Shown: positions 3,840 through 61,867 of the stretch, in pieces
Layout: every line of letters begins with the position of its first letter
How positions within the stretch are numbered: position 1 is the first letter of the stretch
NCBI GenBank assembly: GCA_964016885.1
Contig: OZ024743.1
Coordinates: 343,418,001-343,482,000 of the forward strand
DNA from: Eledone cirrhosa
Taxonomy: Eukaryota
Direction of reading: 5' to 3'
Length of the DNA stretch: 64,000 bases
Program-made: the position numbers and the translations under genes
Notes under the pieces: model-generated
The model's input: the letters and a program-made list of their open reading frames with translations, nothing else
Database searches by the model: none
Told to the model about the DNA's origin: nothing

Positions 3840-5720
3840 TCACAAAACTCACTTCCTACTCTCATTTTACTGGCAGCTCCTCTGTACATAGCTTGAATTC
3901 CTCTCATAAGCCATTCTCCTACACCTAATCTCCTTCAGGCCTTTTCTAGATCAACAAAAGCTAAATATAGTGGCTTATTTTTTGGTTAGGAATTTCTCTT
4001 GTAATTGCCTCACTAAGGAGAGGGCATCGGTAGTACTTTTCCCAGGCATGACACCAAACTGTATCTCATTTGATTTGACTCTTTCCCTAATTAGCTGCAC
4101 TCTAACTCCTATCACTTTCATGGTCCATTAGTTTTAATCCTCTGTAGTTGCTGCATTCTAGAGCATCACATGGTCCATTAGTTTTAATCCTCTGTAGTTG
4201 CTGCATTCTAGAGCATCACCTTTGCCCTTGTAGCAATTTATGATTGTACTGCTGTATTACCTGGTTGACTATGCAAGTTACTAGTTTGACTCCTACTTCT
4301 GATGCTTTTAGTATCTCAGCAACTATTTCTGATGGTCCCACAGCTTTACCATTCTTCATCTCTTTGATTGCTTCTTTGACTCTAAAGCTATCAACTTCAA
4401 TAGCTGGTTCTTCTGATAGGTATGTTGGAGGTAGTCTCTCTTCTTCCCATTCATTCTCTATGTTCATCATGCTCTCACAGTAACATTTCCAGGCCTCTTT
4501 CTTTTGGGCATCAGTGGTGCTAAGTGCACCAGTGTCATTTCTAACACATTTTTCCCCAACATATCTATTTACACAAACACACTGTCTTGCAATGCAGAAC
4601 ACTTCACATCTCTGATCCGCACATCTCAAGACATTGACAAACTTTCTTTTTTCAGCCACTTTCTGAGCTGTGTATATCTGTTGTTTAGCTTATCTCTTAG
4701 CTACCTAGTACTGGTCTCAGCTACCCCCATTTTTCCAGTCTTTCCATGCCTCTCTCTTGGCTTTAATGGTTCTATACACTGTGCTGTTCCACCACCAAGT
4801 TTCCTCAGTAGTTGTCATGTAGGAATTTCCAGTTGTCCTTTATGTTATATGTACCTAGCTTGTACCCTCATCTACTGCAGCCTGTAGGGTCTTTCTAAAC
4901 CTATATTGAGCTTCCACACCCTTCATCACCATATTTTTCTGCTTATCTTGTTCTGTCTTGTTTAATTTGATGTCGCTAATAACTAATTTATGTTAGGTCG
5001 TGCATTCTTCCCCAAAGAATGCTTTAGTGTTTATTACAGTCAGTTTATCTCATTATCTTACGATTAACCCATTAGCAATCACATTACTCTATATATACTA
5101 TTATATTTTCATGGTAAAGGCTTTACCTCACATAATATCGAATCTATGAGATTTTGAAAGTATTTATTTTGAGAACAATACCTTAACATCAGTTTGAGTG
5201 ACCAGTTACAGCCAGTTTCAACAGAAAAAGAATTCTAGCTGGTTTTGGCCGGTTTGAATATTAAAGGATTAAGTAATCAATTTGGCCTGTGTGTTTACCT
5301 GACTGATATGAGATCAGGTGACTGGCTGGCTGGTTTCCTGAAATTTGTGTTGCAAATGGTTAGTTTATTTTTGTCACAGAATTCCAGAAGCCTCAATCCT
5401 TCTTCATTTCTTAAGCCATAGCCACAGAATCCATCCTCGTATTGCTCCACATGTCCATCAAAGTCGCCTGCCAGGATGATGAGGTTTCTTTCATCAATAC
5501 CTGAAGTTGTCTGTAAAAGTTCCTCATAGAACCTGTTCTTTTGGCCTTTACTTAGTCCTGCTTGTGGAGCATGTGTAGATGTGCCACCATTCTATTTCCT
5601 ACAGTTATTCTAAGCTTGATGATTCTATCACTTACTCTAACTACCTCTATTACCTTATCTATCCATTTCTCAGCTACTAACATGCTTACAGTGTTCACGC
5701 CTGTCCCCTGCAGTTGTTTT
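3840..5720 (-). mobile_element. Decayed RTE-clade LINE (EN-RT), with a MITE at 5064-5272 and a 50-bp tandem duplication at 4119-4218
   Basis: ORF fragments such as KEAWKCYCESMMNIENEW and EMKNGKAVGPSEIVAEILK; GDFDGHV endonuclease-like segment. Confidence 0.8.
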
Positions 5721-7619: not shown

Positions 7620-9593
7620 TCTATATCAGTCAGATTACATTCATTTAAAAGATCCAACAATAATTCCTTTTGCCTGATCTGCACAAATACAAATGAGAAC
7701 ATCAAAGAAAATTACACAGTTGAAATTAATAACAGATACCATGCTCTTCAAGACCAATCTCAAGACAACTCTGCCAACACAATGATTGAAAACATAATTG
7801 AAGTACATAAAAAGGCTGCAGAATGGCACATATCTCTGAAACCATGCAAAGCAAACAAGAAGGTCCCATGAGAATACCAAAAAGTAGTAAGGAAAAGGAA
7901 AGAATTAAAAAGTGCCTATTCTAAACACATGCTTCATCCAACTAAAACAAACAGCTTATATTTGAAGCTAAAAGGAATTTGGATAATGTTTATATCAAAG
8001 AACTGCTGCATAATTCCCACTTAAATTGAAAAACTATGCTTGCATGGAGTGTTATCAATAAAAGAAAGAAATCCAGTCAAAGTAAGATAAAAGCTGAATG
8101 CCTCGAGGAAAGAGTAAAGTTGTGGAAGGAGCATTTTGTTAAGTTATTGGGACAACCTCTCTTGATAGTTGAAGGAAATATTGACAAGGTATTTGACCCA
8201 CTGCCTATTGATGTTGGTGATTTTACAATGCAGGAGTTGAAAAATGCAATCAAGTCAACACAAAACAACAAAGCTACAGGCTTGGATAATAAACCAGTAG
8301 AAGTATGGAAAGAGTTGCTTGAAATCTACCAACAGACTTTCAAAGGAAATGTACCAAAAATTTGAAGAAAAGGAGGAATAGTGCCTCTCATTTTATTGGT
8401 AGTTGCAGCTAAAATCTACAACAAACTCTAAACAGAATAAGACCAAATCTAGACCTGAAACTCAGAATAAATCAAAATAGTTTCAGACAGAATAGATCAA
8501 CTGTTTCACAAATATTGACATTGTGACGGCTACTAGAAGGCATCAGATAAAAGAACCTGAAAGCTGTACTAACTTTCATTGACTCCATCCATAGAGGAAA
8601 GCTTATGTCAACTCTAGTTGTATATGGCAGACTTGATGCCATAGTTTGATATAAATGTACTCTATATAAACATGAAGGCTCAAGTTCTCTTTCCTAATCG
8701 TGATACAGAGTTTTTTCAAATCCTAGTAGGTGTAGTTCAAGTTGACACATTGGCACCATATCTTTTCATAATTGCTCTGGACTATTCCATGAGGGAAGCC
8801 AATATTAATGAACATGATCTTAGTTTTACATTGACACAAAAGAGAAGTAAGCAAAACCCACAAACTGTAATATGTGATACAAATTTGGCTAATGACATAT
8901 TCAAGAACATCATAAACTCTAATTCTCTGCCAGAAAAATTGGTCTACACATAAATGTTATTAAGACAGAGTACATGTGACTAAACCAAAATGGAAATCTT
9001 GTCTCTCTGGATGGCAAAATATTAAATCAAGTTGATGATTTTCTATATTTTGGCAGCTGGGTGAGTTCATCAAAAAAGGACATTGACATTAGAATTTCCA
9101 AAGTTCGGGTTGCATTAAACAAATTGGAAAGAATATGGAAGTCAGATCTACCCAGAAAAATTAAAATATCATTTTTGTGAACATCTGTTGAGTCAGTGTT
9201 GTATGGATCGGGTACATGGATCCTGACACAGGTATTTGAGAAGAAACTAGATAGTGCATACACTAAAATGTTTAGGGTTGTACAAAACATAAACTGGCAT
9301 TAACATATTACAAATGAAAGTTTATACAGAAACTTGCCAAAGATGAGAACTACAATTGCTCAAAGGTTACAATTCGCAGGACATTGCTGGAGAAGTAAGC
9401 AGGAAGTTATACACAAGCTACTAGTGAGGGAACCAACTCACGGAAGATGCATTAGAGGAAGACCTGCTCAAACGTTCATTGATTAACTCAGACAATACAA
9501 GTAAAGAGCAGTTGCCGAGAGCAATGAAAAATTGTGAATTCTGGAGAGACTTTGTCAGGAATATTTGACTGTGGTCGCGATGATGATGATGAT
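7620..9593 (+). mobile_element. Decayed RTE-clade LINE with (GAT)n tail
   Basis: KATGLDNKPVEVWK, GVVQVDTLAPYLFIIALDY and DDFLYFGSW fragments; tail at 9578-9593. Confidence 0.85.
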
Positions 9594-15029: not shown

Positions 15030-18000
15030 ATTAGTTTTTCGCTTCTGTAGTTGCTCCTTTCTAGACCATGACCTTTCGCTTGTAGAAAGATAATACTACA
15101 AAGCCAGTCATTGTGTATGACTCCTTGGATAACCTGACTAATAACGAGTTCGACTCCTACTTCACCAGGTCATTTAAGTGACTGTCCACCAGCTTTTCCA
15201 TCTCCTTGAATGCAGTTTTGAGCCTATAACTGTTAACTTCCATAACCATTCTCTGTTAAGTTTACACCCATTCTCTACATTTATCAACCTCTAGTAATAA
15301 CATTTCCAGGTCTCTTTCTTTTGAGCATCATTAAGGTTAAGTGCTCCGATGTCATTCGGAACACTTTTCCTCAACGGCATCTTGATTCACACCGATACAA
15401 TGCTTTGCAATGCAGAACATCTTCCGCCTCTGATCCCCATGTCGCAGAATGTTGGCAAACCTGTTTTCAGCTTCTTTATGTGTTATGTAAAAGCTGGTGT
15501 CTAACTTCTCTTTTAGCGATTTGATATTGTTCTTTGCTGTTACCATTTTTACAGTCTTTCTACACCTGTCTCTTAGCTTTAATGGCTCTGTCTACAATGC
15601 TGTTCCACAACTATATCACCCTTTGTCCGGTTGGCACCTTGCTCCAGCCACTAGTCTTGTCAGTGGCCTACAGTAGGTTGTCTTGTAAAAACTTCCAATA
15701 GTACTCTACGTCATATGAGTTCATCTCCTCCCTCTGATCATATGCATCACATAGCATATTCCGATACCAATATTTAACAGAAAGGTCCTTTAGTTTCCAC
15801 ACTCCCTCTTCTGAATATCCTGTGTTTTTATTTTGTCTAGTTCTTATGTTGTCACTAATAACTGGGTATTGCATTTCTCTCTTGGAAAAGACTTAGCATT
15901 CACAATCACATATCTATCTTGATTTCTAATGAGCATGAAATCTTATATTCACCTGAATGATAGGTGATCAAGTGGTAAGCCGGTTCTCTGAAGTTATTGT
16001 TACAAATGGTTATTTGCATCATTGAATTCCAGGAGCATTGGTTGCTCTTCATTTCTTGAACCATATTCATAACCACCAGGCACTCCAAAGTAACTACCTG
16101 GGTGCTGCCCAATATGTCCATTGAAGTCACCAGCCAGGATAATGAAATCACTGTTATAGAAAATTATTCTTTACCTAACCCAGTGCATAAGTGGAGATAA
16201 CAGTTGTCATTCTTGTGGGAGGGGGGATTGCCGGAAGTGGGGGAACGCCTGACTGGAAGCAGAAGGACAGGGGCGACTCGAGGGATAAGGCCGTGAACAG
16301 CCCTCTTAGCTACAGGCCCAGCAAGGTGACGGATGTGTGAAGACAGATGCGAGTGGAAAGTACCCCACGTTGACGGTGGAACCTGCGATAGAGAGACGCG
16401 TCCGAATGCCTCCGGCTACAAGCTATTTCGGCGTTTAATGAATTTTCCTATCTTTCGGCATTCTTACACCCGGCACGGTAGCCTTTTAGTTTACCTTTTT
16501 TTTAAAAATCTTTTTTTGTTCTTTTTCGTGAGGTATCGTTGTTGATTTTTTTCAGATCTCGCAGGGGAGATGGCGGCGAAACTGAGATTGAATAGCGATG
16601 AGCATGAGCGAGCTCGTCGCACAGACCCGTGTAATAACATAGGACACGAGGTGGAGTGTTGCAGCGCTGGCAGCGACGGAAGCCCATGGCAGTCGACAGC
16701 GACCGACGTATAACGAAAGGAGACCAGCCGCTGTGAATAGTCGTCCGCGTGCGTTTGGAGGCCGGTGCTTCAGGTGCCAGGGCCCGCATATGGCAAGGGA
16801 CTGCAGAGAGCCGAAGCCAGCCATAGTCTGCTATCGCTGCAAGCGACCAGGCTACATCGCTAATAATTGCGACCAGGCAAATGGTCTAAGGGGGACTATT
16901 GCACCGGTAGCCACCCCCGGAAGCGAGTAGAGGCGCCTTTGCAGTTGCTGCCCGTAGTGGAAGGGGTAGGGGTCCACCGCGAGCACTTGTGACCATGAAG
17001 GTGGTTAAAAAGTGGAGCGGGATGGGCAGTCGACGGCAGGGAGATTAGATGCTGAGGTACCAGCGAGTTGTCAATAGTGGTACGGGGAAAATTAGGCTTC
17101 GGCGATCGTTATTGACCAGGTGGTGAACGGAATCGATGTAGTAATGGGCATGAAAGCGATTGGCTGGGAGAATCCATGAAGAAAATATCATACAGGACAA
17201 GGATTTCAGGGCGGTGTTCGATGGGCAGTGGTGGGTAGTTGAGTGGTACTGGATGGGAGATCCACCAGCGCTGAAGAATAGAGTAAGGCTGCTATCAGCA
17301 TACCCTGAAAGGAAATGCCAGAAGCGAGTTTGATGGAGAGGTACAGAGATGGATCGAGGAGGGTATACTTATTCCTTGGAAGGAGGAAGAGAAGTGTGGA
17401 GAGTTTCCGCTGATGGCAGTGGTGCAGCCCACGAAGAACAAGGTTAGGCCGGTGCTGGACTTTCGTGAGCTGAACGAACACATGTCATGCCACACAAGTG
17501 GTGAGGACAGTGGCCATGATGCAGGAAATCGTGGAGAAGGTAAAAGCGGATAACCCAGCTGGTACGTCCCCAAATCGGAGAGCAGGACCGTATGGTGTGA
17601 TGCCAGCAGCATAGCACTAGGGGTCACTCTGGAGATAGGGGGTGTCGAGGTTGAGGACGCAGTTTGGCTCTGGAAGGAGGACTACAACCACATGGCCGAA
17701 CTGAATGCTGTGCTGAGAGGGGTGAATCTCGCCCTGAGATGGGGGCTGCACACTATAGAAATTCGAACTGACTCGGCCACTGTACTTGGATGGGTGAGAT
17801 CAGTGCTTACCAGTGAGAGGAGGGTGCGAACGAGAGGGGCAGCAGAAATGTTGATAAAGCACCGCCTGGGAACTCTGGAAGAGCTGTCTACTGAGTTTGG
17901 CCTGGAGTTGAGTGTAGCTTTTGTACCCTCAGAAAAACAGGGCAGACGTATTAACCAGGATGAAGAAAGTCTGCCTGGAAATGCCAGGGGACGCAGAGGA

Positions 18001-19300
18001 GGGGATAGCGGCAGTGTGTCGGCTGAGTGATTTGGAGTTGAGGGGACTGCACACCATGCACCACATGGGAGTAAATAGGACCCTGTTCCTAGCCAGAAGA
18101 ATCGACTCTGACGTTAACAGACAGTGTCCAGAGAGTGGTCGGAGGTTGCGACAGATGCCAGTCTATTGACCCTGACCCGGGTGTGCACGAGACAGGAAGC
18201 ATCCCGGTGGAGCACAACTGGAAGCGATTAATGGTGGACGTGACACACTACCGACAAGGAACGTATCTTTTGATGGTCGATTGTGGGTCGGGACGGATGG
18301 CGATATGGAGGGAAATGAAAACAGGGACTGCGGAGGAAATCGTGTGAACGCTGAGAGAGATGTTTCGCTTGGAGGCACTGAGGGAAATGCCTAACAAGTG
18401 GAAGGTGAACCGCTTCTTCAGAGCGGCATACAGGCCGAGCAGAAATGGGATTGTGGAGAAACACCATCGCATGATCAAGGCTATGGCGGAAAGGGGGCAT
18501 ATTTCGCCAATGGAGGCAGTGTTCTGGTACAACATGTCTCCTCGGGTGGGACAGGGCAATATATAGATATGAATGGCGACACCCATGCACAGTACCACAG
18601 CAGCCAGTGGAGAGAGAGAGCCCATCCGTACGAGTGGGTGAAGAGGTATGGGTCAGGCCCCCGAATGCGCATTGCACATCTCAATGGGGAAAGTACCCCA
18701 AACAGTGCAGAGATCGCAACGGAGTCGCTGCCAATCTAGGTAGATGGCGCAGTGTGATGGGGGGATTGATCCTTGAGATCGGGTGCCGTGTGGGGCTGCG
18801 GTGAGATAGAGGGGGGTGTAGAGCTGCTGTGGGAGGGGGATGCCTGACCGGAAGCAGGAGGATGGGGGCGACTTGAGGGAGCAGGCCATGAACAGCCCTC
18901 TCTTAGCTACAGGCCCTGCAAGGTGACGGACATGTGAAGACAGCCACGAGTGAAAAGTTCTCCACATGGACGGTGGTACCAGCGATAGAGAGACACAAGG
19001 TAAGTCCGAATGCCTCCGGCTACAATTCTATAACGTATGACTATTCTGAATTTGATAATTTTATCTTAATTACCTTAACTCTACTTTTCAGCTGGTAAAA
19101 TGTCCACTTCACGTAGCCCATCATCATTTCCTACTGAAAAGAGCTTTTAACTGTGTTCTTTGCCTGTAAGGAGTCTGGCTGATGCTATCCTCTTGTATGC
19201 AACACACAGCCACTAGTCTCTTCTAAACATCTACCTCATCTACCTTTCAGCAAGCCAATGTTAAGATTGTTAGCCCTGAAATGTGTTACATTACAGTAAT
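15030..19300 (-). mobile_element. Decayed RTE LINE split by an LTR element
   Basis: Flanks 15030-16213 and 19030-19300 are collinear with the RTE at 3840-5720. Confidence 0.7.
16214..19024 (+). mobile_element. Gypsy-type LTR retrotransposon, internally deleted; LTRs 16214-16420 and ~18828-19024; TSD ATTCT
   Basis: TGT...ACA LTRs; gag zinc knuckles CFRCQGPHMARDC and CYRCKRPGYIANNC; RT piece VRPVLDFRELN; RNase H WCDAS/AELNAV/TDS; integrase HHCC region and NGIVEKHHR; RT-RH-IN order. Confidence 0.92.
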
Positions 19301-29033: not shown

Positions 29034-29294
29034 ATTATATTAAGTGTTAATTTTCACTGTAAAGGCCTATCTCGCAGTAACTTCGAATTGATGAGATTTT
29101 GATGACGGTATTGTTTATTTTTAGAACGATATTTTAGTGTTGGTGTTGTTGGCCAGATTGGGCTTATATTAAGTGTTAATTTTCACTGTAAAGGCCTATC
29201 TCGCAGTAACTTCGAATTGATGAGATTTTGATGACGGTATTGTTTATTTTTAGAACGATATTTTAGTGTTGGTGTTGTTGGCCAGATTGGGCTG
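29034..29294. repeat. ~130-bp tandem duplication
   Basis: Two near-identical adjacent copies TTATATTAAGTG...GCCAGATTGGGCT. Confidence 0.9.
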
Positions 29295-59220: not shown

Positions 59221-60228
59221 ATCATCATCATCGTTTAACATCTATCTTTCACGCTAGCATGGGTTTAGACAGGAATTGTCCCACTTGAGGCAAGATTGGT
59301 TGTCTTGCTCGTATAGGACTGTCTGGCAGGTTTTCTACGGCTGGATGCCCTTCCTAACACTAACCACGTTTACAGTGTGGACTGGGAGGTTTTTACCGTG
59401 TTACCTACATGGCCACATTACAGCGTGGACTGTGTGTTTTTTTTTTGTCGTGACACCTACATGGTCTCATTTATTTAGGACTGGATGTTGTGGTACCAAC
59501 ATAACTTTACAGAGAAAGGGGTAGGAGTAGGGGTAGTGGGATGGGGGTGTATTTTTGGTTAAGCGGTGCCTACTGACTGTAGGTTTCGCTTTGTACTTAG
59601 GCAAGGCGGGTCTTTTGTATTACTGTGTAGTGCCAAAGATCTCGGTCCAGTGACATTGTCTTGGAGAGGTGTAAGTGTGTAAGGTCGGAACTTATCAAAT
59701 TGTTTCAGGTTTTTCTGGGTCTGCCTACTCCGTAGCTTCCATTAATTTTGATTGCCCTGCGCTTTTTTATACAGCTGTCATCTTTCATGCACATCACGTG
59801 ACCATACCAACGTAGTCTTCTCTCGAGTAAACAGCATTTGATCCTTCTTATTCCTAATTTCTCACTTAGTTCATTTATGCTTTGCCGTTCACGTATATTA
59901 CTATTATACATCCAATGGAGCATGCAAGCTTCGTTCCTCTCCAGTCTGCGCAGATCCTCTGCACACAATGCCCATGTCTCACTGCCATGTAACTTTGCTG
60001 TTCGTATGCAGGCATCATACAGTCTGCCTTTCATTTTTAGAGAGAAACCTTTAGCGGCCAATAGTGGTATAAGCTCTCTGAACTTTTTCCCGTTCTGAAT
60101 CTGGCTATTGTACTTTCAGAGCACCCTCCACCATTGCTGATTTTGTCACCCAGATAACGAAAGGTGTCCACTATTTCTATAGAACCGTCTGGGCAATGGA
60201 AGGAGCTAGTATCCTGTGGGCACTTGCT
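59221..60228 (-). mobile_element. RTE 3' fragment with SINE-like tail
   Basis: KGFSLKMKGRLYDACIRTAKLHGSETW; (GAT)n end. Confidence 0.85.
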
Positions 60229-60975
60229 ACTTTATATATCTCTAGGGTGGGAAAAATTCCTGAGATCCATGGACGAGTTCTCTCCAGCGGTCTCTGTCTC
60301 TAATTATCGCTGCCATGTCCTGCATCTCCAACAGACCAGTGTCTGTCCTTAGGGCATCAACATACATTAACTTTGGTCTTCCTCTTCCAGTGTGTCCATG
60401 TAGGGGCTCCCACAGAAGCTCTGAGTGCAATGTCAACTCTGGATGTCGGTGAGCATGTCCAGCTAACCTCAGTCTCCTCTCTGTCACTTTTGAGCTGACT
60501 TTTGGGAGGCTCCCATACAGCTCTGAGTTTTTCATCCTCAGTGTATACTGATTAATGTTCAGAGCCATCCTCAGCATTTTCGTGTAGCACCCATCCACCA
60601 TCTGAGTGAGTTTCTTGGTCAGTATCCTAGTCTCAGACCCATACTGCAGCACAGACTCCACTACAGCAATGAAGACGCGGATTTTCAGGTCTTTACAAAG
60701 TAAGGGAGGCAGAGGATTTGATGCAGGAGGTTGGGGCTGTGTCGGTGGGTGTGGGGATGGGAGTGGGTGGGACTAGAACAAGGTGTCTGGTGGGGAGTAT
60801 TGGGAAGCCAGAGGAGATCACTAATGTAGGCGGGAAGCCGCTAGAATTGGTTGAGGACTTCCTGTATTTGGGAGCAAAGATTGGGAATATGGAAGATGAT
60901 GTGGTTGAGAGGAAGAGCAAAGCCTGGGCAGCGTGCCACAGCTTGAGATCGGTGTGGAAGTCGGACTTTATATAT
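60229..60975 (-). mobile_element. RTE insertion with inverted 5' segment; TSD ACTTTATATAT
   Basis: Plus piece 60701-60968 ends ...SVWKSD; minus piece starting at 60700 begins LCKDLKIRVF...; 11-bp flanking direct repeat. Confidence 0.85.
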
Positions 60976-60989
60976 ATATATATATATAT

Positions 60990-61867
60990 CAGGGAGCTAC
61001 TACCACTGCTAGCTGTAAAAGGCTTTTCCCTCAAAATGAAAGGCAGACTGTATGATGTGTGCATATGAACAGCAATTTACATGGTAGTGAGACCTGGATG
61101 CTGTGTGCAGAAGACTTGCATAGATTGGAAAGAAATGAAGCTTGCATGCTCCAATGGATGTGTAATAGTAACTTACGTGAACGGCAAAGCTTAAATGAAC
61201 TGAGAGAGAAACTAAGAAGAATTGGATGCAGTGTGCAGGAGAAGAGACTGTGTTGGTATGGACATGTGATGCATATGAAGGATGACAGCTGTATAAAAAG
61301 GTGCAGAGCACTCAAAGACGATGGAAGCCATAGAATAGGGAGACCCAGGAAGTCTTGGGAAGTGTGATAAAAGCTGACCTCATTCAATTGCACCTCTCAA
61401 AGATGAGGACGCAGGACCGAGATCTCTGGCATTATACAGGCTGAATCTAAAGCATATATATATATATAGTATTCATCACCGCACCCCACCCTCCCATACA
61501 TCTTTCATGAGGAGTGGCTGTAGCATACATCCAGTGAAGCCTCCAGCCCACACTGCAAAGTGGTTCTGTAGGTGTCATGACAAAAAACACCCATCCCACA
61601 CTGTAAAGTGGTCCTGTAGGTGTCATGACAAAAAGCAGCCATCCCACAGTGTAAAGTGGTCATATAGGTGGCATGACAAAAAACACCTAGCCCACACTGT
61701 AAATGTGGTTGACGTTAGGAAGAGCATCCAGCTGTAGAAACCAAGCCATAAACAGTTCTGTGTGAGCAAGACATGGTCATCTGATCCAACTTGCCTCAAA
61801 CTGGACAACCTGTCTAACCTATGCTAGCGGGGAAAAAAAATGGACATTAAACAATGATGATGATGAT
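60990..61867 (+). mobile_element. RTE 3' fragment with SINE-like tail containing ~40-bp tandem units
   Basis: RELLPLLAVKGFSLKMKGRLYD; repeats AAAAAGCACCC..CACTGTAAAGTGG; (GAT)n end. Confidence 0.85.

What the first reader, a model, noticed from the sequence alone, without database searches (positions are those of the whole stretch)
60701..60810. Apparent A-to-G hyper-edited retroelement segment: possible genomic fossil of an ADAR-edited RNA
Seen: on the element's sense strand, 60731-60770 has 25 G and only 2 A in 40 nt. The RT motif that other RTEs in this window read as GLHINVIKTE (~8941) or ELRVNLAKTK (~30090) here reads GMGVGGTRTR. The odd residues are what A>G changes would give: AAT>GGT (N>G), AAA>AGA and AAG>AGG (K>R), ATG>GTG, GAG>GGG. 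The frame is intact and the downstream VEDFLYLG is normal. Known: inosine is copied as G by RT, and coleoid cephalopods have very high ADAR activity. Inference: a hyper-edited LINE transcript was reverse-transcribed into the germline, writing RNA editing into DNA and possibly reflecting ADAR defence against retroelements. The tract is now also a G-quadruplex-type motif.
Basis: partly seen in the sequence, partly recalled or inferred. Interest (0 to 1): 0.85.

Follow-up and report, generated by a model that had tools for sequence, protein, structure and literature searches.

The report
A-to-G hypermutated patch in octopus LINE
In one dead jumping-gene copy, most likely from an octopus genome, 17 of 25 adenines in a 70-base patch read as guanine, as if an edited RNA had been copied into the DNA, but the neighbouring bases do not show the usual signature of the RNA-editing enzyme ADAR, so the cause is still open.

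Summary
At 60734-60803, 17 of 25 positions where the LINE family has A read G in this copy, on the RNA-sense strand. Elsewhere in the same insertion at most 9 of 198 do (Fisher p 2e-13). Family reads, distant DNA relatives and 114 related proteins show that A is ancestral.

The patch lies in the inverted 5' arm of a 5'-inverted (twin-priming-type) LINE insertion with an 11-nt flanking direct repeat, so it was probably written in at retrotransposition.

No double-stranded partner was found, and none of the four runs laid shows the G allele, so raw-read confirmation is missing.

An ADAR-edited template remains the best single explanation (about 0.5), by precedent in avian retroviruses and the very high hyper-editing in octopus. 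Rivals are polymerase G:T misincorporation (0.25), a later patch (0.1) and an assembly artefact (0.1). This locus gives no evidence for defence. It is one locus; a genome-wide scan is decisive.

The parts
60734..60803 (+). A>G hypermutated patch: 17 of 25 family adenines read G on the RNA-sense strand; 14 codons of the RT C-terminal region change, among them near-invariant E, N and K
   Evidence: conservation E 102/114, N 110/114, K 113/114
60699..60966 (+). Inverted 5' arm of the LINE insertion (end of the RT domain); RNA sense lies on the + strand
   Evidence: loose ends at 60699/60705 and 60966
60242..60700 (-). Non-inverted 3' arm: 152 open codons to the stop at 60244-60242; continues the protein exactly where the + arm ends; no A>G excess (at most 5 of 141)
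   Evidence: joint 60700/60966 on opposite strands in all 4 runs (X21: 771 reads, 14 starts)
60699..60700 (.). Inversion junction; 2 nt fit both arms
   Evidence: junction print against family loose ends (inference)
60229..60239 (+). Left copy of an 11-nt direct repeat, candidate target-site duplication (low complexity)
   Evidence: family D8
60965..60975 (+). Right copy of the 11-nt direct repeat; its first 2 nt also fit the LINE (microhomology); runs into a (TA)n tract
60747..60771 (+). Four-run G-quadruplex pattern created by the A>G changes; folding not tested
59623..60232 (-). Neighbouring copy of a different LINE family, left; inverted relative to the right neighbour
   Evidence: (I1-I3)
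60989..61439 (+). Neighbouring copy of that other family, right; about 78% identical to the left copy; the patch lies in the loop between them, not in the stem
   Evidence: 99 mismatches in 451 aligned bases

Best explanation
A transcript of an octopod APE-RT LINE (RTE-like) carried a hyper-edited stretch of about 70 nt: ADAR converted most adenosines to inosine while that stretch was paired, probably with an antisense RNA from another copy. The RNA was inserted by target-primed reverse transcription with a second, internal priming event. The internally primed cDNA copied inosine as C, and the patch was fixed as G in the germline. Shown: the A>G patch, its polarity and strand, the inversion, the flanking repeat. 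Established knowledge: RTs put C opposite inosine; octopus hyper-edits heavily. Inferred: that the changes arose on RNA, that ADAR made them, the duplex partner, and the timing at insertion.
For: 17 of 25 against at most 9 of 198 in the rest of the insertion, p 2e-13 (patch limits were set at the first and last changed site). The changes are A>G only, on the RNA-sense strand, with sharp edges: 7 adenines kept at 60705-60733 and 15 kept at 60804-60850. The structure is that of a retrotransposition product. Avian retroviruses carry ADAR-type tracts with nearly 50% of A changed (PMC12925331, passages). Two RTs insert C opposite hypoxanthine almost exclusively (PMC7826257, passages). O. bimaculoides has exceptionally high hyper-editing (PMC5625713, passages). 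All 7 adenines with a 3' G are changed (one-sided p 0.04), and 3' G is favoured in most metazoans (PMC9989829, passages).
Against: No 5' G avoidance (9 of 12 changed against 8 of 13). A model with GA edited at 0.3 of the rate is about 70 times less likely than a flat model, about 400 times with a 3' A preference added, but only 3 times with a 3' G preference added (the rates are my assumptions). Both papers read report strong 5' G depletion across metazoans, octopus included. 3' T sites, disfavoured in most species, are changed 5 of 5. No hairpin in the 726-nt 3' RNA (longest helix 8 bp; patch less paired than the rest, 0.42 against 0.61) and no antisense partner in the 64-kb window. Human L1 RNA was not found edited (PMC5224506, passages). 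No laid run shows the G allele.
Confidence: 0.5

Rival explanations
1. Polymerase-made patch: while the second strand of the inverted arm was filled in, an error-prone polymerase (Pol iota-like) or the LINE RT under dATP shortage put G opposite template T over about 70 nt. No RNA editing is involved.
For: Gives the same strand and type of change and needs no duplex. It predicts no 5' G avoidance, as seen. Adenines followed by A are the least changed (3 of 9, against 12 of 12 before G or T; Fisher p 0.002, post hoc), as expected if extending a mispair with scarce dATP is slow (inference). Pol iota favours G over A opposite template T (PMC10779026, passages). The patch starts about 35 nt from the inversion junction.
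Against: Pol iota is very distributive, so a 70-nt tract is hard to explain. No in-vivo precedent of this density came up in my searches. The neighbour rule was fitted after seeing 25 sites. The 7 adenines nearest the junction are unchanged.
Confidence: 0.25
2. Later patch on an existing insertion: gene conversion by cDNA of an edited family transcript, or deamination of the DNA strand in an RNA:DNA hybrid.
For: Sharp 70-nt patch inside an older copy (70 listed differences from run X21 over 819 nt). ADARs can edit DNA in model hybrids at dA-C mismatches (PMC12925331, passages).
Against: No sign of a donor; the copy's own retrotransposition already supplies an RNA-to-DNA step; 17 hybrid deaminations without pre-existing mismatches have no precedent known to me.
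Confidence: 0.1
3. Assembly or sequencing artefact, such as polishing with edited RNA reads or a base-calling fault in thin coverage.
For: None of the 4 runs laid holds the G allele or the window's own junction; in X1 all contig depth at 60734 and 60760-60776 reads A. No protein with the window's residues exists among 265 examined; the best shares 4 of 14. Two perfect tandem duplications in the window may be assembly faults.
Against: The runs may not be the source individual or species, and the tool warns that a hole proves nothing. Only A is affected: C and T are kept, unlike signal-loss errors (own knowledge). The published clustered trace error is G-to-A in AGA/AGG (PMC2873906, passages). 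The junctions and flanking repeat around the patch are biologically coherent.
Confidence: 0.1
4. A G-rich subfamily, or chance accumulation of ordinary mutations.
For: The copy is old and diverged; G-rich stretches occur by chance.
Against: About 96-100% of X21 reads have A at each site; distant relatives have A at 13 and 14 of 17 sites; near-invariant residues are hit; binomial p about 1e-14 at the upper background rate; the longest same-type mismatch run among 114 repeat pairs in the window is 4, against 12 listed here.
Confidence: 0.03

Closest known systems
A-to-G hypermutated avian retroviral sequences (Rous-associated virus, avian leukosis virus), attributed to ADAR
   Same: Dense A>G tract, nearly half of A changed, fixed by reverse transcription (PMC12925331, passages; the 1994-95 originals were not read).
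   Different: Here a non-LTR element in an invertebrate germline; 68% of A over 70 nt; no inverted repeat or duplex found; no 5' G avoidance.
APOBEC-edited LTR retrotransposons in vertebrate genomes (PMC4866542)
   Same: Strand-biased cluster of one mismatch type left in a genomic retroelement; the patch would pass a like threshold (12 consecutive listed, 17 in all).
   Different: G>A on LTR elements, made on cDNA; that screen found none in 19 invertebrates and selected for G-to-A (passages).
ADAR hyper-editing of repeat RNA in metazoans, very high in Octopus (PMC5625713, PMC9989829, PMC9068888)
   Same: Clustered A>G in repeat-derived sequence.
   Different: Those are RNA-only changes with strong 5' G depletion; this one is in DNA and lacks it.
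5'-inverted L1 insertions made by twin priming (PMC2912911)
   Same: Inverted 5' arm plus non-inverted 3' arm, flanking direct repeat, short microhomologies.
   Different: Described there for L1 and its passengers; here an RTE-like octopod LINE without a poly(A) tail.
Diversity-generating retroelement adenine mutagenesis (PMC7826257)
   Same: An RT step that alters about half of template adenines only.
   Different: DGR RT inserts A, C and G opposite A (22, 18, 12%); here 17 of 17 changes go to G.

Membership tests
ADAR hyper-edited sequence | Dense cluster of A>G only, on one strand | tested here: met
   17 A>G and 2 other listed differences in 70 nt
ADAR hyper-edited sequence | Changes on the strand that was RNA | tested here: met
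   + strand is LINE sense for this arm; 3' arm shows no sense A>G excess
ADAR hyper-edited sequence | G depleted 5' of the edited A | tested here: not met
   9 of 12 GA changed against 8 of 13 others; one-sided p 0.88; only 25 sites, near saturation
ADAR hyper-edited sequence | 3' neighbour preference (G in most species; A in invertebrate hyper-editing) | tested here: inconclusive
   3' G 7 of 7 fits; 3' A 3 of 9 contradicts; 3' T 5 of 5 fits neither
ADAR hyper-edited sequence | Double-stranded RNA substrate | tested here: inconclusive
   No hairpin in the 726-nt 3' RNA, no partner in the window; the source locus and antisense transcripts are unknown
ADAR hyper-edited sequence | Same family region edited in RNA of the species | not testable with these tools
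   No RNA holder listed; this is no evidence either way
Twin-primed 5'-inverted LINE insertion | Inverted 5' arm and direct 3' arm that are adjacent in the family | tested here: met
   Joint 60700/60966 in 4 of 4 runs; colinear in P0005, P0007, L001, L002
Twin-primed 5'-inverted LINE insertion | Target-site duplication | tested here: inconclusive
   Exact 11-nt direct repeat at both ends, within the 7-15 bp cited for RTE; low complexity, and no empty allele seen
Twin-primed 5'-inverted LINE insertion | Microhomology at the 5' end and at the inversion point | tested here: met
   2 nt at each; short enough to arise by chance
RTE-clade LINE | One ORF with AP endonuclease and RT | tested here: met
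   In relatives: P0007 has PF14529 and PF00078; L002 has 1015 stop-free codons. The window pieces alone gave no Pfam match
RTE-clade LINE | Microsatellite-like 3' end | tested here: inconclusive
   Family loose ends at 60241 are TA-rich, agreement 0.48-0.55
RTE-clade LINE | RT phylogeny with reference RTE elements | not tested
   No reference set at hand; the label RTE-like is recalled and comes from no call
APOBEC-edited retroelement | G>A on the sense strand | tested here: not met
   Polarity is A>G
DGR-type adenine mutagenesis | A changed to all three other bases | tested here: not met
   17 of 17 to G

The most novel reading that the evidence does not exclude
An undescribed adenine-specific mutator acts during LINE insertion in octopods, either a polymerase step or an ADAR mode without 5' G avoidance, and has left a genome-wide class of A>G patches with their own signature (5' G tolerated, 3' A avoided): an invertebrate counterpart to APOBEC-edited retroelements.
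Probability: 0.2. Interest if true: 0.85.

Novelty: new variant of a known kind. Interest (0 to 1): 0.62.

Why it matters
If real and repeated, such patches are a fossil record of editing, or of another mutator, on retrotransposon intermediates in the germline of the animals with the highest known RNA editing. A role of editing against transposons in cephalopods is named as unexplored in PMC9068888 (passages). It could be tested from assemblies alone by counting sense-strand A>G clusters per LINE family and age, with C>T, T>C and DNA transposons as controls. It would also show a route by which RNA editing becomes heritable DNA change. For this single dead copy no function is implied.

Tried and rejected
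No whole genome is held, so no genome-wide scan. Self-comparison of the window: no second copy of this family and no other same-type run above 4 among 114 repeat pairs. No RNA holder listed. Runs with a small word share that I did not lay (19 of 23 listed) are not used as evidence. Pfam gave no match for the two window pieces. Homologue search at near length found nothing. The search of representatives found no protein with the patch. Three look-ups in earlier findings were empty.

Rejected: intramolecular hairpin in the known 726 nt; editing at this locus through the flanking inverted pair (the patch is in the loop); selection on the open frame; APOBEC; DGR-type RT infidelity; a G-rich subfamily.

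Literature: searches found no report of an A>G-hypermutated non-LTR copy fixed in a genome. The library lacks most subscription journals, I read passages only, and I opened no supplements; supplementary notes of PMC4866542 (all mismatch types, invertebrates) and PMC5625713 (octopus motif values) may bear on this.

Full report
Observation. The base counts are as stated: 60731-60770 holds 25 G and 2 A. The + frame from 60703 reads as the end of a LINE reverse transcriptase. Its closest named relatives are from Octopus bimaculoides and O. vulgaris, 63-65% identical, so the window is most likely octopod (inference). No genome is held.

Polarity from proteins. Of 120 relatives fetched, 114 span the region. 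At the changed codons they are near-invariant for E (102 of 114), N (110 of 114) and K (113 of 114); the window's residue occurs in 0, 0 and 1 of them. Of 265 proteins examined, 232 cover at least 12 of the 14 changed codons, and none shares more than 4 of the window's residues.

Polarity from DNA. I laid 4 of the 23 listed runs on 60150-60968 at 80% likeness, listing differences seen in 25% of reads. The answer showed 40 of 90 rows. Seventeen rows at 60734-60803 have G in the window and A in about 96-100% of roughly 880-1460 raw reads of X21; contigs of X7 and X4 agree at all 17, and X1 at the 14 it covers. The other listed differences in the patch are 60757 and 60799; 60798 and 60802 vary in the family. 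An X4 contig across 60705-60819 differs at 21 letters, so little is hidden. Two distant metagenome relatives, about 53% identical over this arm, have A at 13 and 14 of the 17 sites.

Size of the excess. The patch has 25 family adenines, 17 changed. X21 lists 21 window-G/read-A places and 5 window-C/read-T places in all, so the rest of the insertion has at most 9 sense A>G among 198 adenines (Fisher p 2e-13). The limits were drawn at the first and last changed site, which flatters the number, but the binomial tail at the upper background rate is 1e-14. The edges are sharp: 7 adenines are kept just upstream and 15 just downstream.

The protein that ends at 60966 on + continues at 60700 on the minus strand for 152 open codons to a stop at 60244-60242. 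In the family the two pieces are colinear: the joint 60700/60966 appears in all four runs. An exact 11-nt direct repeat flanks the whole (60229-60239, 60965-60975), and 2-nt overlaps lie at the 5' end and at the inversion point. This matches 5'-inverted insertions explained by twin priming (PMC2912911, passages). The repeat is of low complexity and no empty allele was seen. The copy differs from X21's majority at 70 places in 819 nt, 17 of them the patch, so it is not young, or organism A is not the window's species.

The ADAR test. Published metazoan editing, octopus included, strongly avoids a 5' G (PMC5625713 and PMC9989829, passages). Here 9 of 12 adenines after G are changed and 8 of 13 after other bases; with A at 60802 the figures are 8 of 11 and 10 of 15. 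With an assumed relative rate of 0.3 the data are about 70 times less likely than under a flat model; adding a twofold 3' G preference cuts this to about 3 times, adding a 3' A preference raises it to about 400. The 3' neighbour matters more: G 7 of 7, T 5 of 5, C 2 of 4, A 3 of 9, a pattern found after the fact. Twenty-five sites on one near-saturated molecule are few, the true parent's letters are unknown, and local duplex stability could override neighbour preference (inference). Still, the test was not met.

Substrate. The unedited 726-nt 3' RNA gives no long helix over the patch, and the window has no antisense match. The flanking inverted pair of another LINE family would put the patch in a loop. 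A partner at the source locus or an antisense transcript cannot be excluded.

Mechanism. The simplest history is one event: an RNA with an inosine-rich stretch was copied by the internally primed cDNA, since RTs read inosine as G (PMC7826257, passages). The precedent is avian retroviral A>G tracts (PMC12925331, passages). I put this at 0.5. A polymerase placing G opposite template T during fill-in fits the neighbours better but lacks precedent at this length (PMC10779026, passages): 0.25. A later patch: 0.1. An artefact: 0.1, because no laid run shows the G allele; the source individual's reads were not identified, and only adenines are affected, which argues against it.

Defence. The changes hit conserved RT residues, but this copy was dead by truncation and inversion, and it inserted regardless. 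Human ADAR1 restricts L1 without detectable editing (PMC5224506, passages). The locus neither shows nor excludes a defensive role.

Novelty. It works like retroviral A>G hypermutation and is the mirror of APOBEC-edited LTR elements (PMC4866542, passages). It is not filed as an ADAR product, because one defining feature failed. Seven searches found no report of such a fixed non-LTR copy; the library is partial and no supplements were opened. Other papers used as passages only: PMC2873906, PMC6007223, PMC9068888. The label RTE-like is recalled, not tested by phylogeny. Verdict: real in this assembly, far beyond chance, mechanism open, one locus; interest 0.62.

Noticed in passing
runs laid on window 60319/60562, 60322/60559 and 60336/60604: Opposite-strand joints inside the 3' arm in 96-120 RAD reads each, from 1-2 starts: either other 5'-inverted copies of the family with arms of about 240-270 nt, or library chimeras.
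   Followed up: no
window 59623-60081 and 60989-61439: Two inverted copies of a second LINE family about 0.9 kb apart, about 78% identical; a likely dsRNA substrate if transcribed. Their mismatches are mostly transitions of both kinds, longest same-type run 3.
   Followed up: partly
window 29035-29293 and 4119-4219: Perfect two-copy tandem duplications of 129 and 50 nt; recent duplications or assembly faults.
   Followed up: no
window 16500-18900: GC-rich, G-skewed stretch that looks coding; a recalled resemblance to an LTR-retrotransposon pol gene, not tested. It holds one of the other G-rich, A-poor 40-mers (18779).
   Followed up: no
window 8042-9492: Longer decayed LINE copy of a related family on + (34-52% identical to P0007).
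   Followed up: no
window 60702-60704: 60704 is G where family loose ends have A, a possible 18th change next to the junction; other Octopus proteins allow G there, so it was not counted.
   Followed up: partly
one search run list: Words of this stretch occur in runs of 12 coded organisms; only A and B were laid, so the spread of the family is untested.
   Followed up: no
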